From Trichoplax adhaerens (taxonomy: Eukaryota; Animalia; Placozoa): a DNA stretch of 64,000 nucleotides. Position numbers and translations under genes: made by a program. Of this stretch, positions 10,719 through 60,869 are shown in pieces (within the stretch, counting starts at the first letter, position 1; each line of letters begins with the position of its first letter). Location of the stretch: the NCBI RefSeq assembly GCF_000150275.1, contig NW_002060945.1:3495172-3559171 (forward strand), written 5' to 3'. The notes under the pieces were generated by a model, which ran no database searches, had not been told where the DNA came from, and saw only the letters and a program-made list of their open reading frames with translations.

Positions 10719-15149
<4,431 letters not shown>

Positions 15150-22146: not shown

Positions 22147-25100
22147 TTAATTCACTTGATCATCTCTTCGCTCTATGAAATTCTTTAAATTTGATGAGAT
22201 ATGTATTTCTTTTATAATATTTGGTGATAAATTAATCTATAAATTAAAATATCGTTGCATATGTTAGTCATAAAAAATTTCTTTAGATTAAATTATTTTA
22301 ATTAAATAAATAGCACAGTTGCTACAGCAGTTCGTATCCAATATATAAATACAGAGTAATTGACTTACAGTTAGCCATCCACTTGTAAGGCACCAAGATG
22401 CACTTTTACGTTTACTTTGATAAGGTGAAAGCAATAAAAAATTAGAACATCATTACAATAAGGGGCATAAAGTCTTAATACATAAGCAGTAATCTTTATT
22501 AGTAACTATTTAATGAAGGTGTTAATAAGAAATTAATACTGAAACAACCAATGAGAACATATTTACCAAGGATCGATGGCTAAGCAATGCTTAATAAAAT
22601 TTCGACAATCATCTGACATATCTTTGAGGAAAGTCGAGTCATAAGATCCACTGACAATCATTTTGCATGTATCCTTCTTCTTCTTCTTGTAGAATGGCGA
22701 TAAGCCAGTTAAGCTATATAATAAAAATCATTAATAAATGACATTAACGTAGCCTCTAGATAATATTAATCAATAGAAAACAATCTTGCATTTATTATTA
22801 TTTAAACTGAATCTACTGTATCGTGAAATTCGTTTATACTACAAGAGGAAGGCCCACTAAAATATTCTGGATGTATAAGCTTACCCCAAGTAGGTAATCG
22901 CTCCTAGACTCCTATATATATATACATATATGAACAAGAATGATAGAGTTTCTTGAATGACTAATTTCATAATAATTATATATATATATATATATAAAGT
23001 TTATATTTTGAAAGAATTTTCTCTACTCACCACATATCACTCATAGAAGAAATTCCTGATTGAGAAATAACTTCAGGTGCTACATAAAATCGAGATTTAT
23101 TGACAACTTTAGGTTCAATTCAAGAAAGGCATTAATGCTAAGCAGCTAAACTGATCAAATTCGCTAGTTAGACTCTGAAGAGATATAGGTTTGTTTTCGA
23201 TATTATGCAAATCATCATTTTTATCTACATTTTACCTGCAAATTCCACATCACCATCGAAATCGATCATATGGCAATCGTCAAGACAAATAGCATGACTA
23301 AAGCCAACCAATTTGATAAACTTATGTTCACAGCCTTCCAGTATAATATTTTCAGGCTATAAGAAATATAATAGCGAAATTAATTATTTTAGGATAGGGT
23401 TCTCATTCCACTGCTTATTTCAACATCTGACATATTAAGTAAGAGTTTACAAGAAAAAAGTAGCTAACAGTACAGGAATGGAAACAGATTTTGATTTGTC
23501 ACGACGACAACGTAGTTTAAACTATAAATAGGACTAGGAAATAATAAGCATAGTTTCTACCTTTAAGTTAACTTTAACGACACTCATTTGATGCAGAAAT
23601 CGGAGACCGTCACCAATTTGTTTCATGTAATTCTGAATTTGTAATTCATTTATGCAGTCGTTATCGCAAAGATAATCAAACAGTCTGCCACCTGGTAAAC
23701 TACAATATCAATTCAACGGAAGTTAGATGTATGGAGAAACATATTTACCAGTAGAACGTTTATTTTCTATAACTGGACATAACGATGATGCTAAAATCAA
23801 TGAAAAATAACCAAGGTACTTACTATTCCATCACAATCATATAAATGTCTTCACAGTCGTATACTTCATGGAAGGAGCAAATCTTCGCATGTTGCAATGG
23901 TTGCCATATGTCAAGCTCGCGCTGCACTCCAGCTTTAGAAATAATATCTTTTTGATATATTTTAACAGCAAATTCTTTTAACGTCTCACGATGAGTACAA
24001 TGTTTGACATCTGCAAATTTCCCTCTAAGATAATAAGTTGTAATAACATGAGTATATAGATTAATTAACATTATTTGATCTAGTAAGACATTATTAGCCA
24101 AAATGTTTAATCTTTTCTTAAAATTTAAATTCTTACTTTCCAATTTCATCATATAAATTATAACTATTATAAAAGTATTCCTTCCAAGACCAATTTATAA
24201 TATTGTCATAATTGTCATCTAATTGAAATTACGATAAAACGTAAAGTTATTGAATATATTCATACGCTCTTATATTAAATTAATTTATTGCTGTATATTT
24301 AATTAACCTCTCAACTTTAACAGAGCCGTAGTTGAAACTTCACCAGAAAAGTTTTTAGCATGGCAAGTATATTGGCCAATATCACCTTGAGAAACTGACT
24401 GAATTCTTAACTGATGTTCATTGTTATATGAATCAATCTGAATATTGTAGTTGGATTGTAATAGTTGATTGCCGTTTAAAAACCAGGTTATCGCAGGCCT
24501 ATCCATAGCTTGTATGACACATGTAAACATTGCTGACGTAGACGATAAGACTTCTTGATCAACTAGCGGTGTGTGCACATCAGGCATATCATAACCTAGG
24601 CAAAATTTTGTTATTTAATGGAAAATACTACAGTATAAACATTTTATTCAACTGCTAGCAAACGTGAAGACTTTATCGATATTATCAAGGATCAACACTT
24701 ACCATGGATGCTGTTTTTGCGCTTGCCTTTGTTAAGCTATTGTAAAAAACAAGATATTTATTTATATAACTTTTTAACTCAGCATTTTTATACGTTTGCA
24801 ACTATCATTTAAGCAAATTTAAAGTATACTCTTTGTAGGTGTCATCACATGCTATATCACAAGGTATACTTTTTATAATTGATAAAAATTTAAAGTAGCA
24901 ATGTAGTACCATTAATGCATCGATATGAGGAAAGCTACTAGTAGGATCCGACTTCTTTTGTGATAAATCATCTGCAGGATGATCTATTTTGAGGGATGGC
25001 AACGCGGTAGACAGGGGAAGGACTATAAAGACGTAAAAAGTGCATAAAGTGATGTTAATAATGTATAGTGCTGATGAATATATGAGCAGTATATATCGAT

Positions 25101-28100
25101 GATTATGGTAATAATTATTTTATATAAAATTACTTCATATTATTTGTCTCAAAGATCAGTATTTATGTTACCAATGAAAACAGATAAAAATATATGCAAT
25201 ATTTATATCGTTACCTGGATCACTACCTGATCTCTGAGTAGCCTGTGATAGTCTGAAAAATTTCTGAATTAGTCCAGGACTTCTAAACTTATCTTTACTT
25301 AGTTTGCGGGCATTGTCTAGGTCATTCATACGTTGCAAACTATATGCGTGATGAGATCTACGAATTCCTAACTCCAACTAAAGAAAACAGATACGACACA
25401 ATATTTATAAAATGATTTTTATCACGAAATAATCAGATTATTACAGGTTAATAATTGATACGGATAACCTAAACAAATTGCCTTCGAGTAGAGTATGGCG
25501 ATAAATTTACAAGCAACAAAGGCGTTACAAAAAGTAATCGCTATTCGACTGAGGAATTATAACAATAATAACAGTTTAAAATATGGTGTACATGTTACAA
25601 GATAGTTTATACTTATAAAATGATTGTTATCTAGATCTAAAATTCCCTTATCGACAATGCCATACAATATTGTAGAAAAAATTAAGGCAATGTATAATAT
25701 CAATTATCGGTATTATAAATAAGAAGTATAACAAGCATCGCAATTGACTTTTAGCATTTTCCTTCAATTCTTACCGGATCGTCTATAAAACATTCCATCG
25801 AAGATGGCAAGGACGAACTGGATAAGCTGAAATAGATAGAAGTAATATTTTTTTAAATCTAACTCTAAATGTATTAAAGGAATCTAGCTGGAATAAATAA
25901 TATTTCCATTTCCTCGTATTACCTTTTCTGTTTACTTTGGTAATCAATTGGGGACGATAAAGCTGAAATTGAAATGAAAATTAAGTTAATACTAATACTT
26001 TTAAAAGTATTTAAACATAATGAAATTCTATTCATTAGAATATCATAATCAAAGGAGAATTTATTTTTAATAAGTTAGAAAGGCGAGGGGTTAAAATTAT
26101 AGTCTGATTGAGCTATTTACACACCATCAGCAAAGCTACGCTGGTTGTCCATGATAAAACGTATACGATCAAGCCAAGTATTCTTAACATTAACTGATCT
26201 CGCTTGAAAATGATAGCAATCATCTCTGTTATTATTAAGTCCAGTTTCCCACATGGACCACCTTGTTAAATCTTCAGTATTTTGTTCCTCTAATCGGACG
26301 TGATTCATCTAGATATTAAAATATATTTTTAGACTACTAAAAAGAAAGTGGGGCAAAATGCACTTGCTATAACCATTTAATCCAGTATATACGAAAGAAA
26401 ACAGTAAGACAGAAATTATAATAAATTCAGCGTATATTAATAGATTAAAATATACCGCAAATTCCGCTTAGTTTTACTATTTATAAACTTACCTTAATGT
26501 GATTTTTATAAATATATTTCAAGGTTTCCGATTTACGTCGCTTATTAGTAATAGTATCAGCTAATATCATAGCTTGCTCAAATAAGAATACATAGCGTTC
26601 CTTTCCTTTCTTGATGGCTTTTCCCTCGTAAACAGTCAGATAATCATGTAGTAGTAACTTTCCTAATCTAAGAATATTGCCATCGTAACCTTCCAATTTT
26701 CCAACTTCGCTCATATATTCTACTTGAACTATGATCGATTCAACCAGATGCAATGCAGCCTGAAATATAGTACAATATTAGATTATGAGAATATTATCTA
26801 ACTATGGAGTGTTTAACCTTTAAATGATATCAAACATTTCACGTCATGCGAGCAAATATGAAAGTTACTCCAATATTCTTAATTAGCGAAAGTAAGTTAG
26901 GAGGTACATTATATTAGGTATGGAGAAAACTCCAAAGCGATAACGTAAAAATTACTCTCTATCAAAAAAGTGTTTTGTTAGTAAAGGCAATCAAACATTA
27001 GCACAGATACGATAAATTTTAGATTATTAATTGAGCAATCAAATAGTTTACATTACCTTAACATCGATAGCATTCAAGGATGCACCGACATAAGTCAATA
27101 GTCTGTTTAGCCATGATTGATATAAACGCAGTTGCTCGACGGGTCGAATAACATAATCTTGTAGAGAGCTTGGCAAATTTAACATTTTTTCACATTTCTC
27201 AAAGAAATCGTTATATTCATTGACCAATATTTGCGATTTTGGTATATTGAAACAGTATTCGACATAATTTAAACGCTGAGAATCAAATTTCAGAAAGACA
27301 GAACCTAGTTTCTCCGGTCTTTCCAAACAAGATTTCAAGCTTTTACAGAAGACACTAGATTAAGTTCCGAGAAAAAATGATCATTTCATTATATTAGCAA
27401 GAAATTATGCAACGTAATTAAAATAAGATATTTAAGAATGCATAAGAACGAGTTAATTACTGAAATAAAAAATTCGAATTAATCTGGTAGTGAATTAAAT
27501 AGCATAGGTAGTGTAATCAGTAGTGATAGAGAAATTGCTAACGTTGAGAAAAGTATAGACTAATCCCATCTATTAAATTTGTGATATGAGACTGTTTCCT
27601 AACATTCATAAATGCTTTATTTTTAACTATTGCTATAATAATCTCACTCTTATTGATTTATGATACTTAATCTTTATGTAAAGTTCCGTATTAGTTTATT
27701 GTTGTGCATAATTATTTGTATTGGCTATAATTTGATATAATTACAAAAAGCTCTATGAAAAACTAAAATAACTGATTCGATACGATTTCACATGATACTT
27801 AAGTAATCCTGTGTATTTCAAAAACTCAATCAATCATATTTTTTGTATCCGGTCTCTAATATAGTAGCTCATATTCTATTCTACTCATATTGTAAAAGCT
27901 AATAGATGACAAATTAATTTACTTTTTCGAATCGATTAATATAGCAATAATGATATTCTTTATTTCATGGTAATGAATTCCTTTTAAAATTATTTTAAAA
28001 TATTGTTTACGATCTAACTAATGAAATACTACGTCTATTTATATTTCATTACTTTTACTTTTTGCTTAAATTGGATCAGTACCAAAATTAATTTGTTTTT

Positions 28101-31100
28101 TGGTTTCGCTTTAAGAAACACTTTAATCAAAGCTAAATTATACGAATTTATTAAACAATTATTGAACAATCAAAAACATAAACTAATATATTCTTTATTA
28201 CTTACTTCTTATGCCAGTTTCGAATTTTCTCAATGTTTCTAAATATTGATTGTTTATTCTGTTTTAATGTTTCAGGGACTTGCCAATCATAATTATTACC
28301 ATCTTCGATTAATGTCATATAGCCATTAATCATATATTCAAGATCACGAACATACAACTCTTCGCATTTGATTAATTCTTGAATGATTTGTCTTTATAGA
28401 GTAAATAATTATCGTTAGTACTACCATACAAACCACAAGTTAACACTTTATTTAAAACAACAAAAATGGTATCCATCTAGGTTGGACATAAACTAACTCT
28501 CATAAAAGCATAATTCCAGAGAAAGCTAGTTGAATATGGTAAACAGTAGTTGTATTTCTACGACAGAATTTTCTTATGGATAAATAAAATATGGCACAAT
28601 TTGAATCAAGAACGAACAATGGCTATAATTTATTTCAATTGACTGAAATTTAACTGATCATGATAAACTACAACATCAATACTATAAATAACGCACTTTA
28701 AGTTAGCACCTAGAGCACCTAGTTTTGATAATTCTTTCAAGAATGTGCAAATCATTAAGTAAAATTATAGGCGAAAGAAAATGATTGTAATGAAAATATA
28801 AAAATAAGACATATACACGTAAGTCATTTCATCTGCTTATAAATGTATCTACTATAACAACTATTCTATAGCTAGGATCAAAATTTGTTCTCCAATCCTA
28901 ATCAAACAAAGTTTAGTTCCAAATAACTTTAAATAGCTATGACAACGGGGAACCATTAAATGGTACGGTATTATATAAGCAAATACTATAATCTACTACT
29001 AGATTGTTATATAAAGAGAAACTTGGGAAGACATAGAATTGCTGCATTCGTGTCTAATGGTTTAAATGAGTACTGGTATGACGGTTTATAGGACAAAATA
29101 TAATACTGCTTATATTACTTAGGCAGATGATGGGTCATGTGATTTAAATCGAAAAATTTTCTTGTATTTGGTCAGATTTTTCGCGTCTATACGTAATAAT
29201 TTAAACGAACACGATATTTTATACACAAGGTATAAGTACGGCTTATATGACTTAGGCAGGCTATGTGGCAAGTGATTAGAAATAAAGTCGTTTCAACCGA
29301 TTCGAAAATAAAAATCTATGATTAGAATACTATCCCTAACTTACATTTCTTCCTGTAGGAGTCTTTTACCTTTTTGACCATCAACATTCGAGTACCCTAT
29401 TTCAAATATGAAGAATTTATCTATGGTTGTCATTGGTCAAATATTCATGATATTATATATCTACATGTAATAGATGGTACGTTACTATTCATTTCTCCTC
29501 ATTATACAATATTTAAAAAGAATGAAATAAGAAAATACGTTTCTCTTCTTCACCTTCTGCTTTAATTGTAACCGGTGATATCGGCAGAATGTTTTTATCT
29601 AAGCTACGATTTCGTACAGCTTGAACATCGGATTTCATTTGCTTAGTATAATTGTTCTTATCAAAATATTAGGTAGTAGCCAAATTAGAACAGATTCATT
29701 AAATTAACAACCTGATGCTGTCTTTATAGACGTATAAAAGTGACTACGATTGAATGATTGCTTTTTGAACGTTAAAAGAGATACAAGATTAAACTATTTA
29801 TGTAAGTAATTATCTACAAAATACTGTAGTTATCTAACCTCTATAGCATGGGAGTCCATTGAGCTTTCGTAATAGTTAGAGGATGATGTTAAAAGCGAAG
29901 TCTGAATATCGTTCTGTGGTGGCGTTGAAAACTTTTTAGACTCAGTAAGCACTTTTTCCATATCCTCTGCCCAAAATTCCGATTCTAAGGTATCAAACTA
30001 ATTGAAAGATATAGAAGCGAACAAAAGGAGAATATAACTTAATATACTATGATAATAAATTTATAGCCTTTAGAATAGCATTCACTATCTGTAGATTCTG
30101 TAATATCATACGGTAAATATAAATCCTTTGCCATCGATTTATGCAACTGATGCACGGGTATAGTGTAAAAAACAAACAGATTATAAAATCTCCATGATTT
30201 TTGTGTTTCTATATTTTGTAGCATTGCAGTAAATAAAGTTTTAACATATATCATGAGTCTACTCATAAGTTATTTAGTAGAAGAATCACGAATCGATTAG
30301 ATAAAATATAAAATTTAGTTATTGAGATTTCGAATTTTCGTCGAACTTTCTTCCTCTCTACATTAATTAACTATTTAAAAATGAAGACAATGGCTACTTA
30401 CATCTTTTTGACTACGCGAAGATGGTAATTTAACGAATCCTGCCACTTCAGGAGCCTATCCAAGATCGGGTATAAGTTGTTAGTTTTCCAAAAATACAAG
30501 AAATATATATTGTTGTTATTAAGTCTGAGAATAACGATAACAGCCTACATCGTAATATTGGATAAAAAATAACACAAGTAGTCATACATTTCCTATTAGT
30601 TATTTAATCATTACCGAATGCTTTCTTAACAGATTTTGATGAGTAACAGATTCATCGAATGGTGGTGATATCCCCGCTTTAGTATTTTTATTACTACTGG
30701 ATTTCTTGATTAATGATTTAGCAAACTTATTGGTACTCCTGTAAAGTTATAAGATTGTGATTACGATGATTATTGCACTGATTATTAGCATTAGAACACC
30801 AAGAAAAGTATTACAAAACTTGAGAAAATAAAAAATTAAAGCACCAATGTTATGGTACTTCGAATTTATTAGGGGCGCGTAGATAAAGATCAATGTACTA
30901 TATATAAAGAGTTTATAGGTAATATTATAGAAAAATTTTAGCATAGAGGAAAGAGTACTGATAACTACGAGCTTTTATTTACTCATGTATTTAGAACCTT
31001 ATTAAAAGAAACTAAAAACATCAAAATGGAATTTACAATTAGATAAAAAAAATTGCTAGACTAAAAAACATTAGTCAACGCTTTTCTTATTATAAAGAAT

Positions 31101-34100
31101 GGTATCATAATTTTGAAATAGAAAGAATAAATAAAATAATTCAGTTACGTCCTTAAATATAATTTAACTTGATTTAAAAATAAAATAATTTTTTATGTTT
31201 TAGTATAATCATTACCCAAATCGCTAACAGTTAAATTGTAAAAAGTAAATGAAAGTATAAGACCAATGAAGGAAAATCATTTCTCAACTTAGATAATTGT
31301 AATCAATGAGGTTGGATTAAGACAATTGAATTGATTAAGAGCGAAAAATCCTGCCTAGCTTAATTAATTCAGTTAACTTTAATAATAATGTAAATTTATT
31401 TAAAATATCGAACTAATTGGTATCACAACCTATTCTTCATAATTAATAGAACCGGTTGGTACATAGACATATGATGTCTAGCAGAATAGATTAATAGATC
31501 TGAATTGAAATAACAATGCTATCATCGAATTGAATAGATTAAGGGAAAATGATTTGTCTGCGTAATAATAGACTTAGTTAATACACAATAAAAGCATGAA
31601 ATCTACAGCAGGTATTGTTTAGTCTATTCTATTCATTTTGAGATACTTCCAACTCCCTCTTTCATACCATAATTTTTGGATGCCCTTAGTCACGACTCCA
31701 TCGAACTGATTAATTATTGCTATTTCAACAATAGGTATGACAATGTATATTATCGTTTGTCAACTATGCAAGTGCAACAGCTGGACTATCATATTCTCAT
31801 ATCATCCTTTCTTTTTTTCTCTGTTTATGCGAAAATCTAGTAATGTAGCTCTCGTGAAGTGCAAAATAGTATTAATGCAATGTGTATCCGTGTAAAGTAT
31901 TAGATAAAAGATGAAAGTAGTAGGTATGTCTAATGATCACATTCATATCGCTTACACAATTCTTCTATAACCTTTAATGCAAATTCGATTAAATTAGAAT
32001 TAGTTATTTCTAAATGTAACGGAGTACATTAACGCTATTATTTTTGTTAAGCATGATTGCTAATACATTAATAATAACATGGGCACTTTAATAGATTTTA
32101 TATATCTTTTCTGTTTCCTAATTTATACTCGTCGACATACTGGGAAATGATATATCGTCGAATGGAAAGTAAACTTTAGTATAGTATATTTTATTTTAAT
32201 TTATTTTTGTTTTGCCATGATCAACTGCTATAGACTCGACGTGATATCTTAACTACAAAATTTAGAAATTATGTTTTTCTAACTATAGTAATTAATACAT
32301 AAAAGATGACTTGAACACTTTGCATAAATTTTATATTTTAGTTATAGTCATTACTTTTAGTAGCACAAATGTTCATATATTAACATATACGCTCGTACTG
32401 CGTTTCTCTATTCTAGATTATTTCTATGCGTACTCGTAATGCTGTTCATTATAATTATCAATTGAATCACGTTATTACTTAGATGTTCTTAAATAAAAAA
32501 CAATCCTAAAATTTTAAATGTACCAACTGTGCAAAGTTGTTAAACTAATAAAAATAGCAGAAAGAAATGATTCTATCAAGTTAAAATAATACTGCGCCTT
32601 TGTATAATGGCGATTATGAATCTTAACCTTTCCATAACTGATTAATTAACGTACTATAGACATATAGAGCAGGTCTCCATTACTATGCGTCATCATTATT
32701 TTGTTACTAAAGCCATCATTTCCTTAGATATATAATAATATAGTATTCTCAGTTTAATACACCATATTAACAAAGTTGTAAATCATTTCTCATAATAGTA
32801 ATTGATAATCTACATTATTCTTATATCATAATTACAATAATTTCAAGCTTGTTTATCATTTAGAGAATTAACTTACAAACAGTAACATATCCTGATAGTT
32901 TAACTGTAAAAATATAGAATAATATTAATTCTACTTCGTATCATACTTGTATCATTTTACTCATTTTAGTCCACGTACTGTTGATTACCCTATGCAACAG
33001 TACTTATCCGTAAGAGTTCTAAGAATAACATTAGGCTATTCTTTTTCCATATTTACTGGAATACAATACTAATAGACTAAAATGGTCACAAATATGAATT
33101 AGATTTTGTATTTTTATAAATTTGGGATTAGGCCTTAATACATTGTATACAGGCCTAGAAGGATATATACAGTACTGTACCGTAGGTAGGTTACATGATC
33201 CAAAACAGTGAATTTAACTTTCTAGTCTTACGGTAAATGTTTGAAGGGATATATGCGTCAGCTACAATTTATATCCATGTATACTGTATGTTACTGGAGA
33301 AAATGTGCGCTATTTTCTTAACATATTTTAGATAAAAGCCATAAGCTCAGCTTAAAATGATTAATTAACAGAACTGTAGCATTACTTTGATTTGAAAATG
33401 TTAGCAACAAAATATAGTGAAAGATTTAAGACTCACCCCGCATGTAAAAATACGTATGTTAGAATATATAAAGCATTTCAAAGCATTGTGAGAACTAAGA
33501 TAATACTGAGTAATAGAAAATAATATTATTGAATAAAGACCAAATTAAAATATCGGGAAAACAGCGAGGGTCATACTGCCATATTGTAATATAAGCAACG
33601 ACAGTAGTTGCTAGTATACAGCTGTTATGGTACATAAATAAACCTATGTAAAACGGCAGTTATAGTAAATAACGAGATGGATCTATGAAATGATACACTA
33701 ATAACGTTTTTACTTCCATATGAAAGCTAAAAAATATGTATTTCGTCTTTATGTTTGCAGTTAGTATTGAAGGACAAACTGCGTAGCTATAGAATAGTTG
33801 TTAGTGCGAAGTTTTTCAATCGCAACGTAGAATATTAGCAGATGTATACGTCATAGTATGTATTGATGAAGGTAGACTAGAAGCACTTAAAATGAAATAC
33901 TAAATAGATTTACTAATATATGTGTCTTGGTATAGTGTAAAAGAATAAAATTAGTAGAATTTTCGATAATAGAATTATACGAGTATAGTAATATTAGTTC
34001 AAAGTAGATGGCTGTAACCTGGCTGATAAAATAAAACTATATCAAAAAATTGAGCAGTAAGATCGGAGAAATTCGAATTGGATCGTGACTCATTTTTCAG

Positions 34101-37100
34101 GGAATATTTTCGAGAATTTTAACGTTACTATGAAGATAAATTAACTATGAGAGAGAAAAATTGATGAAAGTCAATTAAAGTAAAAAAGAATCAAAAGAAA
34201 GTGGGATCCAGTTATATAGATTCTGTCTTGTAAAAGGTGTAATAAAGCAACACATGAATGAAAATTAGGTAGTGAGTAAAAAGGGAAAACTTTTATATTA
34301 AGAATCAATGATAGGAGAAGAGAAATCAGAAAAGTTAGATATAAGTAGAAAGAGAAAGATTAAATTTGAATCTTTCTCTAGTATTGTTGTAATTTTTCTA
34401 ACCTCAGTATAGCTTTAGTTGAATTTGACCGATTGAATTTGCCTTTACTGGGTTCGGTGTAATAATATTGATTGATTTCAAAGGATGATGATGTTGATTC
34501 TGTATCGACTAATGTCCAAAAAGAAGATCACATTAGAAAACAAGTTCAATTCAAATTGAGCTTCCTAAAAGGTCTCTAATGTATGTTACAAAGTTAACGT
34601 TAAAATAAAATAACCCTTTACTGCTATATTCAGCGGTCATCTACGTCACAATTAAAAGCGCTTACATAATATTAACAGTTGTATGATAATATCAAATTGT
34701 TGAAAAATAAAATGAAACAACTGGATGAACTCCTTTACGTAGGCTATCACTGCGTGACAAAACAATCAACAATCGAGAAGTTTGTTCAACTCAAGACAAA
34801 AAGATGGTTCCAGCAGTCTTGTCTTCCTACCCTAAGGAATAATATTAACGTAAGGCAATCAACTACGTCAAATCCCGTTATCGAACCTTTTTATAGATCA
34901 ATTTTGTTGAACATCAATAGATGAAAACGAAAATTAATCGCAATTTATTTTGAAAGGGAAGAAAAGAAAGAAAAATATTCGCTTAGCCTGATTTGGAATA
35001 TTTGATGAGTTGTTTCATTGATTATCAATGTATATATATATATATACAAAAAGAAATTTTGAATGGGACTGGAGAAATAATCTTGTTCAATGTTATCATC
35101 AGCTATAAATAGATAGTGATCCAAATACAATAGAAGCTATCAAAGTTACTGTCTGTGATGTCATGAAAATATTATCAATATCTATCATCAAGTATTAATA
35201 GGCTAGTAATAGAAAAAAGAATATTAAATCAGCGCGAACGGTCGGCTAATTGAGAAATTAGAATTGTAATCGAAAGGAAAATATTGCACACAAACATTAT
35301 TGATGATTATGAGAAAGCATTACGAATTCTGCTACTGCTGTCATCTAAGTAAATATCGTGAAATGATACAATATGCAAAATTGCAGCCAACAACATGTTC
35401 AGTAGTCAATAGCGATAGAGAAGAATATCCAATCAGCGCTTACTGTATACCTCCTTCACCTTCAAATTAGGATTGTAAGCGAAGGAAAATATCGCACATA
35501 CAATATTTACTCTAACGTCATTACGCATAAATACATGTACATAAATATCATAGAATAATATTCTTAATAAGATAGACAAAATTGTAACTAACAACGTGTG
35601 TACTGTACAGTCATTAATAGCAATAAAGAAGAACGTTAATTAAATCAACGCAAGCCACTCATGAACTGAGAAACTGGAATTGTAATCGAAAGGAAAATAG
35701 CACACGCACAGTATTTATGCTAATGAGAAGGTATTGCAAATTCGGTTGTTGCTGTTATCTAAATAAATATCATGAAATGATGCTCTTAATATGGCATGCA
35801 AAATTGCAGCTAATAAAATGTATCACTCTTCTGCATTCGAGATTTTCTTAATGAAATATAGAGGAATATCAAAACAATACAAACTACTCATTAGCTAAGA
35901 AATTGGATTATACGTATTCTAGAGGAAATTATCACGCGTTCAAAAACTACTCTAATGAGAAGGTATTACAAATTATATACTACTGTCATCTAAATGAATA
36001 TCATGAAACAACTTTGTTAATGCGGCGTGTAAAAATTACGGCTCACGGTATGCAGTTATAGTACAGTAGATAGAAAAGAAATGATAAAGGAGGTGATTCT
36101 CCATTAATTAAGGATGATCTTTAGATTATATTTAATTAAAATACTATATTGGCTTCTTTATAGGAAGTATATACGTAAAAATTTGAATACGATGATATAT
36201 GAATATATGAATAGATACAATACACGTAGATTATATCAGGGGATTGTATTGTGTTGCTGCAATAAACTTGAAATACACAACAAATAATTGACCATAGATG
36301 TAAATTATCTTATTAGTCAGTCATTCAACATGATCGATTTCTGGAAAAAATTTTAATTTATCAATGATTTCAATCAAAGTAAAAGTTTCTTAAATTTTAT
36401 GCTAAAGATTACGAAATATATTAAAATGAGAACGAAAGTATGATTTATAAAGAATGTAATTGTAGCAGTAAGGATATTTATTGGGAAGCACTCCAAATGC
36501 TGTAAACTATCGTACTTTATTCAATCATGAAGAAAAAGCAATTTGATTGCATAAATGTAGAAATAAAGCGATAGAACAGTTAACCTGCTAGCACGACATG
36601 AAACAGAAAGGGCTTTTGTCCATTCTAATTGTTGAGTAAATCAAAAGATACATTTACTATATATCTCCTTAAGATTTACAATAGAAAGGCTGATTCGTTC
36701 CAGTAATATCATGACTCTGCAGTAGTCACAAAATAATTATCAAGTCACTCATAGGATGAGCTAACAATCCTTATAAGTACTGTATATACGTAATTTACTA
36801 ATACACTACATTATGTCTGTCTTGTTTTACAGCTTATTATGACATATCTTAAAGGGAAATACCAGTATTTCCTAAAATGACAGCTACAATTGGAGTAGAT
36901 TTTGACATTAACTAGGCTTGGAATAGAATGATAGGAATTCTAATGGAATGAAGGTGACTAATAGCAAATACCTATTGAATCAACTTATGGATCTGAATCA
37001 TAATAGTAGGTAATCACGTACATCTCATTGCGTAACATCGTCCGACTACAGCCAATTTCGTAGATGAGTAAGCAGTGACAATTTGATATGTATATATTCC

Positions 37101-40100
37101 TTTAAGTATTATAATAGAGGTAGAAGTGTACCTATTTCATTGTAGATCTGGACCTTAACATCATCATATTGCATTGTATTATGAGATGCAATAATCGAAT
37201 AGGTGATATAATAAGATTATGACTAATGGAAACAACGTATACTTGGCAGACACTTTAGTTGCGATGGCAATTTTATCATTTTACCTTTCCGGTCTTTGTT
37301 TAAAGACATTAGTATTTATTATTTGAAAGTTATTGATGGGAGTAGTTAAAAGTAATTAATTACAGAAAATGAGTGCTCTTCCACGATCTTTTAATACCCT
37401 CTGGAACGATATAAGTATCAATACTTTCCCATGTATACGTATATGTTATATAGTGATACATATACCAACTAAAAACCTATATTAAGGTACCTTACCATCT
37501 ATGCATAAGAAAGTACTAGTGAAAGATTTTTTGCAATAGTTCTCCATCCGCAGTATACTGACTGTAACGGTAGAAACAATATTACTATCATTTACTTATT
37601 CTTGAACTACAATAATCTAATCGGTGCCTAATATTGGGCAGCCTACCTTACTGTATATATCACTAAATTCACGATATTTTCTATTAGACGCTAGATAAGC
37701 CTTTTGAACTAATTTGAACCGATTAGTAGTTCGCCTAAATTTCCAGTTGATAGAATTTAGCTTACGATAATGTGATCACAGCGAAAGTTTTATCTTACTG
37801 TTTAAACACTCATAATTACCTTGCCCCAATCTTTGATAAATATAGTAACGGGCCAGTGTATGGCTTATTTAAACACTACCTTATAGTTCGAAGTATTCTA
37901 GGGATAATTATAGTTAATAATAAGATGCGAAATATTATTTTGTAAATTCAGACAGCTTCAGAAGATGTCTAATACCATTTTTTAGAAAACACTATATTAG
38001 ACATTATTCCTAGCAACGTTAAGAATGAGTGTACGTATCCAGGTAAATGACTATGAAATACAGAAACACTAAATTGGGCGAAAATAAACTTCAACAATTG
38101 AAATTTTAGTAAACCGAGCTGCCACGTTAAGCAGTTATTCTGATATTAAGATCAGTCTTGCGTGCGTAGCGCAAGATACCGAAGTCTAACGTTCAGATCG
38201 AAAAGCTATACAATTTTAAAACTGAGATTAAAACTGCAATATTGCTAAACGTAACTTACCGTCCGGGTCCTTAATAAATTCAGGTAAAGTGCTACTTCTT
38301 TTCAGTCCATAAGAACGCGGGATAGAATCATCAGATGAGTGTTGTTGTGAAAATCTTGATTTCGTTGATTTTTTTCTCCATTTCGTTTTTCTCTCTTGCG
38401 GTTCAGCAATACTACCTAAGAGTAATTCTTCTCCACTTGAGTAATCCTAAGCAATAGCAACGATTTAAGTAACAGGGATTATACTCGTTATTGATACATT
38501 GCTAACGTCGTCAATTCCATCTATAACAAAAGGTAACTATTTTAAAACTAACACGCGAAAATACTGACTTTTTCAGATCCAATACCACTTAAGCGAGGAT
38601 AATCGCCATCCGAGTCTTCTGGAGATACACTATATTGAAATATAGTTAAGAAGACGTTATCTTATTTTTATATATCGAAATCTTTGATACAACTATTGTA
38701 TATAAGATTACAACCAGATAACCAAAGACTGTTACTTTAAACTTACAATACTTCTGAGCCACTACCTGGCCTTGATTGTATACTAACATTGCCACCTGTA
38801 ATCATCGTAAATTGAATGTTAATAACGTTATATTTTACTGATGCAAGAAAGTAACACAGTCAATGCCCTCACGTAATTTAGCAATCCCAATATATACTAG
38901 CGGCTTTAAGCGCTTGATCCATTCTTCAGTTACGGATTCGCTATAAGACTAAAATCGCAACAAAACATGATCGAATCTTTATGATTGAGAAAGAATTACA
39001 TTGTAGTATATTCCGTATTTACTGAGTCAGTTTAATTTACTTTGAAAATTAATTTGCTATCTGAAGCCCTTTTCGAAATTATAACAAACTTAAGAGGCTC
39101 GTTTTCTATTCTGCCTACGGATGCAATATCGGCGACCTAATAAGATATCAACCGCAGAAAAATTATTATAGTACTCGAAAAGTATTAAAATTACAGATAC
39201 GCATACATGCGATAATCATCCTTAGTAACTTACCATGATCCTACTCTTAAATATGTAATTTTTAACGTTGCCATCCCCATCCTTTACTTGTTTGCTTAAC
39301 ACTAAAGCTTTCTCAAATAGAAATAGATGACGTTCTTTTTCTTTTCGTCGAATACTCTTTGAATCCATTAATAAGCACTCATCTTGCATAATAACTTTTC
39401 CTAGCCCTTCTATATCGCTATCTACGCCTGTTAAAAGGCCAGCATGCATTGCATCATTCGCCCGCCTAGGAACACTCAACATCACCTCCACACTTGCTTT
39501 AATTTCCTCTTTCCCACTATCAACACAGTCCATCAGATCTTTCAATAATAATTGATATTTTGTCATTCTTTGAACAGGTTTTATTAAATAAGATGATAGT
39601 GAAACATCACAACAAGAGCGCTGTTGTACATCATCAAAGAAAGTCTGGCCATATTCCATAACCACTGTGTTGGATCTTGATTTATTACGACAATAATCAA
39701 CATACATTTCGAAATGTTCAGCATGCGAAATAAAGCAATTACCAACATTTTCGGGACTATCAATACAGGCAGTAAGTTCATTACAAAATGTGCTTTTATG
39801 AAAATTGTAAATTTCTTCAATATTTCCAAAGATGACCTCATCTCTACCATATAATTCAGCTGGAACGTCGGGCCCATGCATGGCTTCCATGTATATATTA
39901 ATAACTTGTTCTAAATCTTTTACATATGTCTGCTCTGTTGTAATCAACTCGTTAATAACAAATTTCTTTCGTCGTTCAATTCGTTGCTTTTCATCATCTT
40001 CTGATAATTGTCTCTTAAGAGATCCTCGACTTCCAGATCTTTGCAAATCAGAACGAAGGCTAGATAAACTTGCTCTACTAGACATTTTATGGAGATAAGT

Positions 40101-43100
40101 ATGTTTATCAGGATATTCCGTTGTTGGTTCACCTTTAGTAATTGCTTCCAGGAGAAACTGATGTTTGCTCATGTTATAATCGCAATCATAATAGTTCGTT
40201 TCCAGCGAATCCATCATAGCTTTAACATTATCCGCATGATTATGTTTATTTTCAATTAATTCTACACCATCCTCGAGCAAATTTTCAATAGTTCGATACA
40301 TTTCTTTTAAACTTGCTTCATTCTCTCGGAATAACTTTAAATGAAGTTTTGCTTCAGATTCTGTTAATTTTTCATAATTTAAATTCATAGGTATATGGAA
40401 AATATTTGATTCATGAAGAGTATTTAAAGTTTTCTTAGCTTCAGTATCAAAAATTATAAATTCTTTACAGTGTTCTAAACTAATCATATGTGATCGCCAT
40501 AAGTTAAGAACATAACCCTCACGACGTCTTAGCTGTTCAATGATCAGACGAGGATGTTCTCTTGACGAACTGGTAACAATATCGTCTTTGGAAGTTTCAT
40601 TTATTGCCTCTTCGTTGGCGTAGGTATCTATAGCTTGAATTAACGATAGCAAGTTGGTAGAATAAACGCGAACAAGGCCGCAGGCAGCAATTATGGTATC
40701 TCTTTCCTTGTTATGTTTAGCGATCAATTCATAAATTGCTTCACTTTTATTAGTAACTCCTGTAAATTCACTAGCAATATCACATGGATCTCGGCCAGAA
40801 GAAAAATCTCTTTCCGCACTAGATAAAACTTGAAATATCTATAATTGGTTTATAGTAAAAAGTTAGCAGCCTTAATTTCCTTCTTTTGAATATATTATAT
40901 ATAATTATCAAAGAGAAAAATAATGTAATTCTATTAGATAAGATGAAATTGAATGTTAACGCAATTAAAGAATACCTCTTCCGAAGCTTCATGGAATTGT
41001 ACTGATGTGGTAAGAAGCTCATCCCGAAGGTTGCATAAACGGTTAAGGCAATCCCAACTTTCCATGATGTTATTGATACAATTGTTACAGGTTTCAAAAT
41101 TATGTAACCCACTCTCGTTTAATTTGGTGCCTTCTTTATATATGTTCTCAACACTTTGACCGATACACTATATCATGTGCCAAAATAAATATTTTAAATC
41201 CATAAGATAGATGGATTGATATATAATATCGCTATGGATACATAGACATAGGAATATTCAACACTGTAACATGAACAAATACAGCAAGTAACTTTTAGCG
41301 TTATGTCATTTACATCAATAGTCTTCTTAAATCCTTCGAATTGTTCTTGCAAAGACTTTGCTTCAATTGGATTTCTTCCAATCTCTGAGAAGTTGATTAG
41401 AGACAACTCCGCGTGACGTATCCATCCAGATAGCTAAAATAAATGTACAAGTTTTACATGTTGATATAGTAATATGAATGTCTAAATATTATCAAAATTA
41501 ATATAAAAGAACGTATAATGTATGATAAGCTAGGGTACCTCATTTCCTTTCTCTATAAACTTGACCAACGTTAAATGTCTTTTCATAAATGCTAATTTTG
41601 TCGAGTTGGTATTAACAAATTGCTGTTGTTTATCAACGCATAGCTGCATAGATGCGTTTAATGCGCTGACATGATCTTGTTCATTTTCATCTGAGGAACT
41701 AGGGATATTTATTTGTAGATCCTGTATCTGCGGAACAATATTGTCACGTAACAGCTGTAATTCCTCCAGTTGCGATGTAAACAACGTATTTTTATCTTCA
41801 TATGCATTTATAAGCATTTCCATTTGTTGGCTACTATCGGGATAGGTTGCATCTAATATTTCGCTTCGTTGTTGATCGCAATCTTGCATAAACTGTAAAA
41901 TATGTGAGTCGATAATTAGTTACAACGAATATGTATGCAGGTACTTATATACGACATTCTATATTCATATTTATGATGCAAATCTGACCTTATCAATGTT
42001 TTCTTTAAGCTCAAAAAAGTCAAGACATAGTTCCAGCTTGCTTAGACGCATTGCCCACAAACCGTCTACTGCGCGTCTTTTCTCTGATAAGCCAGCAATT
42101 ACTTCTTCCACAAGATCAACTGCTTCATTGAGCAGTTCTTCGGATGGCTCTGTTATCGATTTATAATATTAGAGGTTACAAAGTTACAAACTCCGGCTAG
42201 TAACTTATGATTTAAAGATTAAACGTATCAGTGCTTACTATTTTTATTCTTTAGAGCAGCAAAACTTTCGTAATGGTCTTTTAAGCTCCTAATAAGATTG
42301 TCACAGTCTCCTTTTGTTAATCGTTGAGCATTAAGTGCTGCCTTTTGCCTAACTTGGCATCCTTCCAGCATCTCTTTAGCTTCCGCTAGTGAGGAGGCAA
42401 ATGCATCCTGACACAACTTCATTTTAACACCATTTAACCATTTCGTAAACTAAAAATTATAATTATTAATTAGTATATGGCTTTATTGAACCTACATTAA
42501 TTACGCTTCTAAGATAGTAACAGTGAATACACTGTAATGACCAAACAAACCTCTTTAGTATGGCTATGAAAAACAATAGATAATTCTATCATTTCTCTAC
42601 GCTTGCATACACATTTACGAAAATTTTCCACAGTATCGAATAGCCTTTTTCTTAAATTTTGTACGGCACGCTTGTCGCATTCTGCTGTTTCAGTAAGGTG
42701 TTCGCAAGTCTTTAATAATTTCTCTGCATTATTGTACATAGTCTGCAATCAATAACAAGAATAATGTTAATCTATTTATTAAATAATACGAAATAATCAA
42801 ATACAAAAGGATTGATTGCCAGATTACTACTGTATGGAATCGTATCTGAAATATACGTGCAATATCAATGACGACTTTCACAGACCTCACACATCTTCTC
42901 GAATTCTTCATGTTTTCGTAAAAGCATGTCTGCTTTGCTTAGAGATTTTGCTATACGAAAATTTTTTATTAAATACATTTCCCCATGCAGTTCAATCCAC
43001 TCAATAACCTATGCAAATTATAATTTAGTAATATATTTCCATTCTATGTGATACACAGAAGTTTACAATTACACAATAGGCAATATCATTTAGGTATCAT

Positions 43101-46100
43101 CAACGTTTTCGCATATTGCTTAATTTACCCGATCGGAATCTTCATCGATTATACATAGCTGATATTTTTGATCAAGTTTTTTGACGACTGAGGACCATTT
43201 TCGTTCGAATTCTTCTTTTTCTATCTCGACAGTGTGCAACAGACTCAAAACATGATTTGCTGCTTCATTGTAAGTAGGACTAGCTGCGGTCCACATATTA
43301 CTGTTAATGACGATAGTACTAGGTGTATGAAGCAGTTGAGAAAGGTCTTTACCAATCCTTTTAATTTTATTATAAGCTTCTTTAAATTCTTCTTGAATGG
43401 TATTATGCTTTAATTGCAAATCTTGTAAGGTTGATAAACCTTGAGGTATTCTTTCTCTATCATGATGACAAGCTCTTTTAAGTTTGTCCACTAATCTGAT
43501 GAACTACATTCAACGATAGTTATTTCTTTAAACTTTTGAATTGCTTTGAAAAATTTCGAACACAATAACTATCATCCAATGTATACTTACATTTTCGTAC
43601 TCTTTGTGAAATAGAAGCGATTCGCGTACCAAGGCTCCCCTTTCTTCCAGACTGGCAGCGAAATGTTTCCATTCTCTGTCAAGTGTTTCACATTCCTCCA
43701 GAAGATCTTCTTTGGCATATTGCATGTTGGGAAATAATTTGTTACCTTGTTGCAATAGTTTACTAACGTTTACATATACGTTCTGCAATAGATTAGTGAT
43801 TTAAAGTTAGATAGACATCTTTAAATAAATCAATGCATTTCCGACGTGATAGAATTGACTACATTATACCATTGCACTCTCTTGAAATCTATGATAATCT
43901 TCTTTATGCCTCTTAGCAGATTCGATGCTAGTTCCAATGTCAGTGAGTTTCATCAAGAAATTATCTCTATTGCGTTTAATCCATTCCCTGACCTATAGTT
44001 CAAGAGATTAATGATAGAAAAAATACCAATGACGATATCCTCGAAATCATAGATGTAAAATTATCATTTTACTGCTGAAATATTGATGTAACTAGAAAAC
44101 CATAACAAATATTGCAGATCAGCAGCCTAAAAACTTCACACTAACTTTACCGTTTTATACAATAACTTACTTTTCCACTTTCTTTGACAAAAAGGCATAA
44201 CTGGTAATGTTGATCCAGGTTTAATTTTTGTTTTTGCCATTGGTCACGCAATTGTTGACGTTTTGTATGCATAATATTTATTAGTGTTTGGATTCGGCTT
44301 GCACTGGCAGTAAAGTCTTCTAAGGAAGTTCGAATAGGTCGTTCTCTTCAAATATTGTAAAAGTAGCACATTTTAGTAATCTTGCTAAATTACAATAAAC
44401 AATAGCAAAACATCTATATCTGTGTCGTTGAAGTTATAAAAGCGTAAAATTTATTTTTAATATTCAAATCTGTTGAAAGTAATCATAGCAATAGAAATTA
44501 TAGGCACTACACAGGTACCCTTGAATCAAATCTAGAATAGTTTGTCCGTTTTCTTCAAATTCATTAATGGGAAGATTGTGCATTAGTTGCTTTATTTTCA
44601 GATGATCTTTTTTCCTTTCTTTAATTGCCTCTAGTTCTTTTGGTAAATTAAGGTTGCCGACGGAATCGGATATTTTATCCATTTGATGAATAACACCTAA
44701 TGATTTTCTTGAAAATTCTTCCAACATCTACAATATTACATATGAGATGTTTTAAAACGAATAAATCATTTAACTATTTATGCTAGTATAATTTTATCGT
44801 ACATTTGCTTTTTATTAAAAAGTAACATTCATTAACTATGTACAAGTATTATATTAGCTTACTAGGCGCAATTCTATCCATTCTTCGTGACAGTATGGTA
44901 ATATTCCTTGCAATTCTTCCGTTAAGTCAGTAATATCAATTTGCTTGACTAAATTGGATATAGAAACCACCTGCATCTATAATATGTGATAAGAACAAAC
45001 ACATTTGAACTTATTATGTCGAATAATACATATATATTGTAGCGTGACAGACATTTTAAGTATTAAACTTCTACATGATTGGATTATATAATCACGATAG
45101 ACGTGTACATGTATTTGTACGCGTATAAATAGCGAATTAGAACATGGGAAAATATCCATTAGTAACTATTGGTATCCGAATCGGTTAAAAATGATCAAAA
45201 AGCGGAAATTTCAAAGTCAATAATAAATTACATTTAATTCGGTCTTCATTTGTGTAATCATTGCTTTGCCACGTTTCCAAAAGGAATCGGATTTTATAAC
45301 AAATACTTTAGCGATAGTATCTAAGAAAGCTTCTTCCAGTATATTCAGTAGCGGCTTTAAGCCTCTCCAATCGACAGATCTTCCATCAACAATGACAGTC
45401 AGGCCTTTGACTTTTACTTCTTGACTAGATGTTGTAATAGTTAGTGTTAAAGTAGCTTGATACCGTGATAGATAAATTAAAATGATTTATAGTAATCATT
45501 TCTATAGCACTAGCTGCTACTTCATGACATACTTTATTATACGATACCTGTAGCATTAAATCATGCACAGAGTGACATTTATAATTTATATTACATTAGT
45601 CTATGTCACAGAGTATGGAAATCTTACCACGGAATGCTTGCAAGATAGTTTATTAGCTTTATTAGACGTTCACTTTCGATGTCAACAAATGTTACCCTAG
45701 CTAGAAAAGTGATGATAGCTCTGCCACTTCTATCTCGACCACCTAATAATTGTAAGTAAATGGGAAGCAATTTATGTTATCCCTTATGTCAAAAAATTAA
45801 CAAGTACTTTTAATTTGTGTAGTACAGTTGTAACTTTTAGAAGAGATTCGATCGGAAATCCAGTACTTAAGCATTACTATGATTGAGTTTACGTGTATCT
45901 AGGACAGAATATTGTAGCTAGTTTAAAATTAGCGATCGTTACTGTCTCAATTGCAAAGTAGTTTATTTATTGTTAAGTCATCGGCACTTTAAATTTGCAA
46001 TAAGTATTGATTGAGAGACATACGCGTACATTAATGTTGATAATATTTACAGTAATACAACATCTTGCAAGTCAAGTACATAAAACTTAGTTGTCACATT

Positions 46101-49100: not shown

Positions 49101-49503
49101 AATTAATCGTTTGCGGCTAAGATAGGTATACAGGATGGAGAATAGTGTAATAGAACAGTGTTGTGATCGATATTATGAAGAAATGAAGAGTACAGTAGTG
49201 AAAGATGGATGATAAGACCGCGTGCGGCTTTTCAAGTGACGTTTGTCGTGTATAACTGTACCTAAATACAGTCATGACTGTTGTACATCAATACGTAATT
49301 GTGAATTTTTATTTAATGGTTTGTTATTACAACGACTTGAAGAATGTAAGCTGGGTGTATTTATTGGTCAATTTTTAAACTGTTTATTATTTTAGTATAT
49401 TATTGAAGTAAATAGCTTGGATTAACTTACCTAATTCCATTAAACTTTTTGAGATATCATCGTCCGATAGTGTATTGACAGCAACAAGCGATCCTGCAGC
49501 CAT
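22147..49503 (-). CDS. TRIO: Trio/Kalirin-family multidomain RhoGEF: Sec14/CRAL-TRIO, spectrin repeats, DH1-PH1, linker, degenerate DH2-PH2, Ig, CAMK-type pseudokinase
   Basis: About 40 GT-AG exons. N-terminus KANDVLKILKEKIAFLSG|GRDRSG (48163-48089, 45742-45628); spectrin repeats ~44700-40100; DH1 ELITTEQTY, LIKPVQRMTKYQLLL, RRAND in exon 40838-39234; linker exons incl. 38446-38260, 34508-34403, ~30739-30615; DH2-PH2 28391-26125; Ig 24596-24308; kinase 24218-22147 ending NFIERRDDQVN*. No FN3 before the kinase, which is Trio-like. The start codon at 49503 and the final stop are best guesses. Confidence 0.9.
35200..36070. repeat. Degenerate tandem repeat, ~210 bp x 4, in a Trio intron
   Basis: Recurring GAAAYTRGAATTGTAATCGAAAGGAAAAT...TAAATATCRTGAAA...CAAAATTG units starting near 35252, 35463, 35668 and 35897. 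Confidence 0.8.
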
Positions 49504-56370: not shown

Positions 56371-60686
<4,316 letters not shown>

Positions 60687-60869
60687 CTTTAGTATAAAGA
60701 ATGTGAAAGAAATTTTACATCGGAGATTTCAGCATATTAATATGAATTAGAATGCACTATTATGTCAGAAGCCTTATCAATTAATGGGGATTAAAGTTTT
60801 AGAATTTGCGAACAGCAGATAATTTATTAAATAGCGATATACAACTAGCTTTAAGATATTAGTTAATAC

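What the first reader, a model, noticed from the sequence alone, without database searches (positions are those of the whole stretch)
25923..28391. Degenerate second DH domain with a retained Galpha-q-binding helix: possible Gq decoy or rewiring to Rac
Seen: DH1 is canonical (TE, KPVQRMTKYQLLL, RRAND). DH2 has CE for TE, RPVEQLRLYQSWL for KPVQRxxKYQLLL, and IIVQVEY where the conserved C-terminal Asn is expected. PH2 is still followed by FAD|ALSSPIDYQ. Known: the FLNALxSPIEYQ extension is the Galpha-q docking helix of p63RhoGEF, Trio and Kalirin, which normally activates RhoA exchange by DH2. Inference: together with the pseudokinase, the whole C-terminal half may be catalytically silent, binding Gq without activating RhoA or relaying to DH1. 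The L-to-A change in the helix may weaken binding.
Basis: partly seen in the sequence, partly recalled or inferred. Interest (0 to 1): 0.8.

Follow-up and report, generated by a model that had tools for sequence, protein, structure and literature searches.

The report
Placozoan Trio with disabled RhoA switch
In the simple animal Trichoplax, the signalling protein Trio has lost most of the residues its second catalytic domain normally uses to switch on RhoA, yet keeps the short helix that docks on the G protein Gq in other animals, so Gq signals through Trio would likely reach Rac alone, which is untested.

Summary
Observation confirmed. The window holds the Trichoplax adhaerens Trio/Kalirin gene (TRIADDRAFT_54394, minus strand). 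Spliced RNA contigs support every DH2-PH2-helix junction, and an independent DNA run carries the same motifs. DH2 is the true TrioC orthologue but keeps only 1 of 9 core GTPase-contact residues; DH1 keeps 9 of 9, and 109 of 118 other DH domains differ at one position or none. The loss is selective: CR3 and helix 6 are eroded, the rest of DH2 no more than DH1. The changes hit positions whose mutation impairs human Trio (R1428, K1431, P1461, N2143/D2144). Fragments from a second, likely placozoan, lineage (83-85% identical) share the altered motifs, so this is old and maintained. The Gq helix keeps its four-residue core. Best reading: a pseudo-GEF module that likely lets Gq recruit Trio to the membrane so that DH1 activates Rac. 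Neither binding nor inactivity was tested. New variant of a known kind.

The parts
22566..49503 (-). Trio/Kalirin gene (TRIADDRAFT_54394, 2678-aa model): CRAL-TRIO, spectrin repeats, DH1-PH1, long linker, DH2-PH2-helix, Ig, kinase-like domain; no SH3 or FN3 found by Pfam; the transcript runs on past 22566
   Evidence: P0151 100% identical to the big exon, maps along the window by tblastn; Pfam; RNA joints
39432..39971 (-). DH1 (residues 1289-1468), canonical; groups with Rac-type TrioN
   Evidence: Pfam RhoGEF 133.7 bits; 9 of 9 core residues; trees
28206..28391 (-). DH2 exon 1: CR1 with Cys1899-Glu1900 (Thr changed, Glu kept) and CR2
27057..27354 (-). DH2 exon 2: altered CR3 RPVEQLRLYQSWL at 27146-27108 (K>R, Q>E, R>Q, K>L, L>S, L>W) plus K1989I and E1993Q
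   Evidence: motif identical in P0001
26493..26759 (-). DH2 helix 6 (IIVQVEY at 26735-26715: P>I, K>V, N>E, D>Y; M2068S) and first half of PH2
   Evidence: Asn>Glu also in P0337
26125..26308 (-). second half of PH2 and start of the Gq-docking helix (FAD)
   Evidence: P0339 also ends FAD
25923..25962 (-). 40-base exon with the helix-turn-helix core ALSSPIDYQ (Ala2202, Leu2203, Pro2206, Ile2207 = p63RhoGEF Ala474, Leu475, Pro478, Ile479)
   Evidence: RNA joints in X20 and X16; alignment to 2RGN chain B; PMC6499889 supplement
24308..24595 (-). Ig I-set domain exon
   Evidence: Pfam I-set E 2.7e-19; RNA joints
22566..24218 (-). pseudokinase-type domain: Gly loop, beta3 Lys and alphaC Glu kept; HLD>KVN (catalytic Asp>Asn at 23569-23567); DFG>GFS (23305-23297)

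Best explanation
The second DH-PH module of placozoan Trio has lost most of its Rho-contact residues while keeping the core of the Gq-docking helix, and is likely a pseudo-GEF that would let active Gq recruit Trio to the membrane, where the intact first module would likely activate Rac. Shown: sequence, splicing, orthology to TrioC, selective erosion of CR3 and helix 6, sharing with a second lineage, intact helix core. Inferred from human mutants: little or no exchange on RhoA (about 85%). Inferred from motif conservation only: Gq still binds (about 65%). Inferred from human Trio: recruitment, not allostery, links Gq to DH1, and DH1 acts on Rac by orthology to TrioN. The Gq-Trio branch would then give Rac output without the RhoA output it has in cnidarians and bilaterians.
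For: Core set T,E,K,Q,R,K,L,N,D: DH2 reads C,E,R,E,Q,L,S,E,Y (8 changes), DH1 has 0; of 119 DH domains with all nine columns filled, 82 have 0 changes, 27 have 1, 6 have 2, and one each has 3, 4, 5 and 8. Consensus positions kept in CR3 + helix 6: 35 of 44 in DH1, 11 of 31 in DH2 (Fisher p 2.3e-4); in the other DH segments 40 of 70 and 31 of 55 (p 1.0). End branch 3.2 for DH2 against 0.57 for DH1. By alignment to 7SJ4 and 6D8Z the changes fall on R1428 (same R>Q), K1431, P1461 and N2143/D2144, E2069, M2146 of human Trio: K1431M severely and P1461T partly reduced Rac1 activation, R1428 and K1431 were critical in an alanine scan, and R1428 contacts T1303/E1304 (PMC5605661, passages); N2143A/D2144A is a reduced-activity GEF2, and E2069/M2146 lie in the predicted RhoA site (PMC12309612, passages); CR1 Glu and CR3 Lys are the named catalytic residues (PMC5727386, section 9). 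Module 2 groups with TrioC at 100/100, and a DH1-duplicate origin is rejected (AU p 3.8e-5). Model pLDDT 91 with a C-terminal helix-turn-helix, top fold match 6D8Z. Fragments P0001, P0337, P0338, P0339 (83-85% identical) share altered CR3, Asn>Glu and FAD; a 38-residue identical run covers CR3 (shuffle p 0.005). The four helix residues shared by p63RhoGEF and PLC-beta3 are all kept, including the Leu whose loss abolishes binding (L475A, PMC3722567, passages). In cells Gq is thought to raise Rac1 exchange via Trio by membrane association (PMC9372627, passages).
Against: No activity or binding was measured. The CR1 Glu is intact, and K>R and Q>E are chemically mild. Position 472 of the helix is Leu in 41 of 49 distinct helix contexts and Ala in 2; from memory, L472A was among p63RhoGEF mutants that impaired Gq binding (paper not held). 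DH residues that I recall touching Gq in 2RGN (p63 Arg244/Arg245) align to Ser1977/Gln1978. The helix-core exon was not recovered from the second lineage, so its conservation is shown only for T. adhaerens and T. sp. H2. The 11 altered positions in exon 2 are all identical in P0001, but that alone is not significant (p 0.15). All 3 listed exonic variants in DH2 among Trichoplax runs change an amino acid (T1916A, K1967N, N2000S), a weak hint of relaxed constraint. Segment borders and the core set were chosen after seeing the sequence. The fold model leans on canonical homologues. Trichoplax Gq, Rac and RhoA sequences were not examined (no genome held).
Confidence: 0.45

Rival explanations
1. 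The remodelled DH2 face binds a new partner (an atypical placozoan GTPase, a GTP-bound Rho protein, or another protein or Trio domain), and Gq binding would control access to it.
For: The altered CR3 is letter-identical in a lineage 15-17% diverged, inside a 38-residue identical run; the changes are to specific residues (Trp, Leu, Glu), with no indels in CR3 or helix 6; the CR1 Glu is kept.
Against: That helix is also structural core, which can explain its conservation; identity at the 11 altered sites is not significant (p 0.15); helix-6 positions vary between lineages (VQVEY against NQVEN); no partner is known.
Confidence: 0.2
2. The module no longer binds Gq well and survives as a folded spacer or lipid-binding PH scaffold; the helix is kept as part of the PH fold.
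For: Leu>Ala in the helix; changed DH residues near the recalled Gq contact; SH3 and FN3 domains are also absent, pointing to general simplification; 3 of 3 listed DH2 variants are non-synonymous.
Against: Ala-Leu-x-x-Pro-Ile-x-Tyr-Gln is intact on its own 40-base exon while the sequence just after it is low-complexity; the same Ala is in octocoral Trios; the helix can be lost outright, as Drosophila Trio P0014 gave no match to the motif.
Confidence: 0.15
3. Gq decoy: the module binds active Gq mainly to compete with PLC-beta and damp calcium signalling.
For: Overexpressed p63RhoGEF delays Gq-PLC-beta calcium signals through this helix (PMC3722567, passages); the helix mimics PLC-beta3's (PMC6499889).
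Against: The helix sits in one chain with an intact DH1, so binding would bring an active GEF along; competition was shown with overexpression; expression level is unknown here; a weaker helix would make a poor decoy.
Confidence: 0.1
4. DH2 is a divergent but working RhoA (or Cdc42) GEF, weak or matched to co-evolved placozoan GTPases.
For: CR1 Glu, Pro-Val and Tyr-Gln of CR3 and the fold are kept; single core changes are tolerated in 27 of 119 domains; human N2143A/D2144A is called reduced, not null (PMC12309612).
Against: Eight simultaneous core changes; Gln2025 is Gln in 123 of 123 other rows and Arg2026 Arg in 122 of 123; DH1 of the same protein is canonical, which argues against globally altered GTPase switch regions.
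Confidence: 0.1

Closest known systems
Human Trio/Kalirin GEF2 (TrioC, PDB 6D8Z) and nematode Trio
   Same: Orthologous module, best sequence and fold match, same place between DH1-PH1 and Ig-kinase, same C-terminal helix.
   Different: TrioC is an autoinhibited, Gq-activated RhoA GEF; here 8 of 9 core residues and E2069/M2146/R2150 equivalents are changed, SH3 and FN3 domains are absent, and the kinase is a pseudokinase type.
p63RhoGEF/ARHGEF25 (PDB 2RGN)
   Same: Helix-turn-helix with Ala474, Leu475, Pro478, Ile479, also Phe471, Tyr481, Gln482, all matched.
   Different: Leu472 is Ala; DH catalytic face eroded; part of a two-GEF protein.
Pseudo-GEF DH domains (BCR/Bcr-Abl DH-PH and six other Dbl members named in PMC5727386)
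   Same: DH fold kept, key catalytic residues lost.
   Different: BCR's inactivity was measured, and it has a long blocking loop; here the CR1 Glu remains, and the dead-looking DH carries a Gq-docking helix in tandem with an intact GEF.
Engineered or patient GEF-impaired Trio alleles (K1431M, R1428Q, P1461T/L, N2143A/D2144A)
   Same: The same positions are changed, one identically (R>Q).
   Different: Here they are fixed together in a natural protein and shared across lineages.

Membership tests
Trio/Kalirin | CRAL-TRIO + spectrin repeats + two DH-PH modules + Ig + kinase domain | tested here: met
   Pfam on P0151; SH3 and FN3 not found
Trio/Kalirin | Module 1 orthologous to TrioN, module 2 to TrioC | tested here: met
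   DH-PH tree 100/100, duplicate origin rejected at AU p 3.8e-5; on DH alone the best tree agrees but the alternatives were not rejected (p 0.097 and 0.24)
Active Dbl-family RhoGEF (DH2) | CR1 glutamate | tested here: met
   Glu1900; preceding Thr is Cys
Active Dbl-family RhoGEF (DH2) | CR3 Gln-Arg and Lys | tested here: not met
   Glu2025, Gln2026, Leu2029
Active Dbl-family RhoGEF (DH2) | Helix-6 Asn-Asp/Glu pair | tested here: not met
   Glu2065-Tyr2066; Glu-Asn in P0337
Active Dbl-family RhoGEF (DH2) | Measured nucleotide exchange | not testable with these tools
   needs an assay
Gq effectors of the p63RhoGEF/Trio type | Ala-Leu-x-x-Pro-Ile core after PH | tested here: met
   helix-turn-helix in the model
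Gq effectors of the p63RhoGEF/Trio type | Phe-Leu before the core (F471, L472) | tested here: inconclusive
   Phe kept, Leu>Ala; Ala also in octocoral Trios
Gq effectors of the p63RhoGEF/Trio type | Activation-dependent Gq binding | not tested
   the complex-prediction queue was full; needs a binding assay
Pseudo-GEF DH domains | DH fold kept, catalytic residues lost | tested here: met
Pseudo-GEF DH domains | No exchange activity on Rho GTPases | not testable with these tools
   inferred from human mutants only
Pseudokinase (C-terminal domain) | Loss of catalytic-loop Asp and DFG Asp | tested here: met
   KVN and GFS in P0151 and P0290; exons RNA-supported

The most novel reading that the evidence does not exclude
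Early in their history placozoans turned the Gq-to-RhoA output of Trio into a Gq-gated adaptor: Gq still docks, RhoA exchange is gone, the signal goes to Rac through DH1, and the remodelled, conserved DH2 face binds a new partner. This would be a natural, lineage-wide rewiring of a core GPCR-cytoskeleton pathway in a muscle-less animal.
Probability: 0.25. Interest if true: 0.75.

Novelty: new variant of a known kind. Interest (0 to 1): 0.52.

Why it matters
Gq-Trio-RhoA is a conserved route from GPCRs to contractility, and in human cells Gq turns on both Rac and RhoA through Trio; how it reaches the Rac module is open (PMC9372627 proposes membrane recruitment). A natural Trio whose RhoA module is disabled but whose Gq dock is kept would separate the two outputs and test the recruitment model directly. 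It also bears on how placozoans, which lack muscle and nerves, couple GPCR signals to shape change. If Gq does not bind, it is still a clear natural pseudo-GEF, of narrower interest.

Tried and rejected
Sequencing error or mis-splicing: rejected. Decayed relic of one strain: rejected, the same motifs are in T. sp. H2 and in fragments 83-85% identical. Tandem duplicate of DH1: rejected on DH-PH, not on DH alone. Leu>Ala as a sign of decay: not specific. Protein search with exon 2 among 176-2000-aa proteins: 0 of 35 candidates scored. Metagenome scan for the DH2 exon: 335 pattern matches, none confirmed, so no genomic locus of another placozoan, and no helix exon from one, was obtained. No whole genome was held, so Trichoplax Gq, RhoA, Rac and other RhoGEFs were not examined. 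A complex prediction of the module with an invertebrate Gq from metagenome contigs was prepared but never ran because the queue was full; this says nothing about binding. A second structural aligner was busy. The p63RhoGEF mutagenesis paper PMC2655113 is not held, and no held paper joined p63RhoGEF with L472A. One search had a numbering slip, corrected. Earlier-findings look-ups returned nothing.
Full report
What the locus is. The window is AT-rich, intron-rich animal DNA. A minus-strand gene from about 49500 to below 22566 encodes a Trio/Kalirin protein: its 538-codon exon is 100% identical to P0151, the 2678-aa model TRIADDRAFT_54394 of Trichoplax adhaerens, clustered with Trichoplax sp. H2 'Kalirin' P0290. 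Pfam finds CRAL-TRIO, spectrin repeats, two RhoGEF and two PH stretches, an Ig and a kinase domain, and no SH3 or FN3. No whole genome was held.

The observation. The five exons of DH2-PH2-helix have GT-AG ends. Spliced contigs from X20 and X16 show each junction, including those of the 40-base helix exon, and one X20 contig continues into the kinase exons. The joined frame is open and matches P0151 at 359 of 359 residues. DNA run X10 covers 25848-29700 with one listed exonic difference. The motifs are therefore real and transcribed. The helix pattern appears once in the window and 0 times in 60 shuffles.

Orthology. The module's best solved relatives are TrioC (6D8Z, E 8.7e-53) and p63RhoGEF (2RGN, E 7.1e-52), ahead of TrioN (7SJ4, E 1.7e-37). 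In a tree of 22 DH-PH modules from 11 proteins, first and second modules separate at 100/100, and a sister relation between the two Trichoplax modules is rejected (AU p 3.8e-5). On DH alone (34 rows) the best tree agrees, but the alternatives are not rejected (p 0.097, 0.24). The DH2 end branch is 3.2 against 0.57 for DH1. The AlphaFold2 model from a 42-row alignment has mean pLDDT 91, a normal DH bundle, a PH domain and a final helix-turn-helix, and matches 6D8Z best; it leans on canonical homologues.

How degenerate DH2 is. I scored nine core positions (CR1 Thr-Glu; CR3 Lys, Gln, Arg, Lys, Leu; helix-6 Asn-Asp) in 125 distinct DH domains of the Trio, Dbs and related groups; 119 had all nine columns. 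82 have no change, 27 one, 6 two, one each three, four and five; Trichoplax DH2 has eight and its DH1 none. The set was retrieved with Trichoplax queries and is not the whole Dbl family. Among 29 non-placozoan second modules, 39 positions are at least 90% conserved; Trichoplax differs at 15, a divergent two-kinase Trio-like protein (P0075) at 13, and the next at 4. The loss is selective: against 28 non-placozoan Trios, CR3 plus helix 6 keep 35 of 44 consensus positions in DH1 but 11 of 31 in DH2 (p 2.3e-4), whereas the other segments keep 40 of 70 and 31 of 55 (p 1.0). I drew the segment borders after seeing the data. Mapped through 7SJ4 and 6D8Z, the changes fall on human R1428 (same Arg-to-Gln), K1431, P1461, N2143/D2144, E2069 and M2146. 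K1431M severely and P1461T partly reduce Rac1 activation; R1428 and K1431 were critical in an alanine scan; R1428 is modelled to hold T1303 and E1304 (PMC5605661, passages). So the retained CR1 Glu has lost its usual partner, and the Thr-to-Cys change sits beside it. N2143A/D2144A lowers GEF2 activity, and E2069/M2146 lie in the predicted RhoA site (PMC12309612, passages). CR1 Glu and CR3 Lys are the named catalytic residues, and DH domains lacking such residues are called pseudo-GEFs, with BCR shown inactive (PMC5727386, passages and section 9). I put loss of normal RhoA exchange at about 85%; it is inferred, not measured.

Age and constraint. Four unnamed fragments, 83-85% identical, were found. 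P0001 has the altered CR3 letter for letter, P0337 has Glu at the Asn position (NQVEN), P0339 ends in FAD, and P0337 and P0338 differ from each other. Their identity is far above that of any other animal (about 30-45%) and below that of T. sp. H2 (97%), so they are likely from another placozoan genus; that is inference. Mean protein distance between T. adhaerens and Hoilungia hongkongensis is 28.3% (PMC6067683, passages), so 15-17% would mean better-than-average conservation. P0001 differs at 14 of 94 residues, none among 11 altered positions (p 0.15), and shares a 38-residue identical run over CR3 (shuffle p 0.005). Against this, the three exonic variants listed in DH2 among the laid runs all change an amino acid, though outside the core.

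The Gq helix. FADALSSPIDYQ aligns without gaps to p63RhoGEF FLNALQSPIEYQ. The four residues identical in p63RhoGEF and PLC-beta3 (Ala474, Leu475, Pro478, Ile479; PMC6499889, passages and supplement) are kept, including the Leu whose mutation abolishes binding (PMC3722567, passages). Position 472 is Leu in 41 of 49 distinct contexts found with a pattern anchored on the core, and Ala in two: Trichoplax and the octocorals Xenia and Dendronephthya, whose DH2 is canonical. So the Ala is not tied to the DH2 decay. From memory, L472A impaired binding in p63RhoGEF and Arg244/245 of its DH touch Gq; I could not read those papers, and the latter align to Ser-Gln here. The helix-core exon was not recovered from the second lineage. 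The complex prediction did not run because the queue was full. Gq/11 predates animals (PMC12716839, passages); that Trichoplax has Gq, Rac and RhoA is my own knowledge. I put retained binding at about 65%.

The kinase. It keeps the Gly loop, beta3 Lys and alphaC Glu, but has KVN for HLD and GFS for DFG in both Trichoplax proteins. Placozoan and sponge Trio are reported to keep kinase-B while cnidarians and bilaterians keep kinase-A (PMC12198301, passages; it does not mention inactivity). In my 20-row tree the Trichoplax kinase falls outside the kinase-A group with moderate support (88/75), beside the second kinase of P0075, which also has Asn for the catalytic Asp. Activity of the human Trio kinase has not been reported either (PMC9372627). 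The pseudokinase is probably older than, and separate from, the DH2 change.

Mechanism. In purified human Trio 1284-2638, Gq raised RhoA exchange about 2.5-fold and left Rac1 exchange unchanged; the authors attribute Gq-driven Rac activation in cells to membrane association (PMC9372627, passages). Gq both recruits and activates p63RhoGEF isoforms (PMC5105084, passages). The simplest reading is that placozoan Trio kept the recruiting half and dropped the RhoA half: active Gq docks on the helix, Trio goes to the membrane, DH1 loads Rac (0.45). Rivals: a new partner for the remodelled face (0.2), no Gq binding (0.15), a decoy against PLC-beta (0.1), a still-active GEF (0.1).

Novelty. Trio, the Gq helix and pseudo-GEF DH domains are all known, and the gene is annotated. 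I found no account of a degenerate GEF2 in placozoan Trio in searches for Trichoplax+Trio+RhoGEF (3 papers), inactive DH evolution, CR3/GEF-dead, placozoa+Gq+Trio+RhoA and pseudo-GEF, nor in passages of PMC5499878, PMC12198301, the TrioNsight preprint and a sponge preprint. The library lacks most subscription papers, and preprint supplements were closed. PMC8305018 and PMC13327543 (passages) gave background on CR1, CR3 and the Thr and Asn residues. Verdict: observation confirmed, interpretation partly supported, a new variant of a known kind, interest 0.52.

Noticed in passing
P0153/P0291 (Xenia) and P0160/P0310 (Dendronephthya), Trio helix region: Annotated octocoral Trio isoforms differ by an acidic insert of about 20 residues inside the Gq helix, just before ALVNPIEYQ, where Trichoplax has its intron. 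It could be a splice switch for Gq docking; the isoforms are NCBI predictions and the exon was not checked.
   Followed up: no
P0014 (Drosophila yakuba Trio): Opposite pattern: DH2 core essentially canonical but no match to the Gq-helix motif.
   Followed up: partly
P0142 (unnamed, 563 aa): TrioC-like DH-PH with 5 of 9 core changes, a very long branch and no ALxxPI helix; possibly another pseudo-GEF.
   Followed up: no
P0075 (unnamed, 3387 aa) and P0065 (1039 aa): Trio-like proteins with altered kinase catalytic loops (HCN in P0075's second kinase, HLG in P0065); P0075's DH domains carry 4 and 3 core changes.
   Followed up: partly
window 22300-22712, minus strand: RNA contigs continue beyond the end of model P0151 (loose end at 22369 in X14 and X20), so the NCBI model seems to lack its last exon(s).
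   Followed up: no
window 10895-15221, minus strand: Neighbouring kinase gene with a leucine-zipper-like region (Pfam kinase); looks like DLK/LZK (MAP3K12/13), a label recalled from its motifs.
   Followed up: no
window 53301-54516 (+) and 56371-60714 (-): An RsfS/MALSU1-type gene (Pfam PF02410) and a likely receptor tyrosine kinase gene (label recalled from motifs).
   Followed up: no
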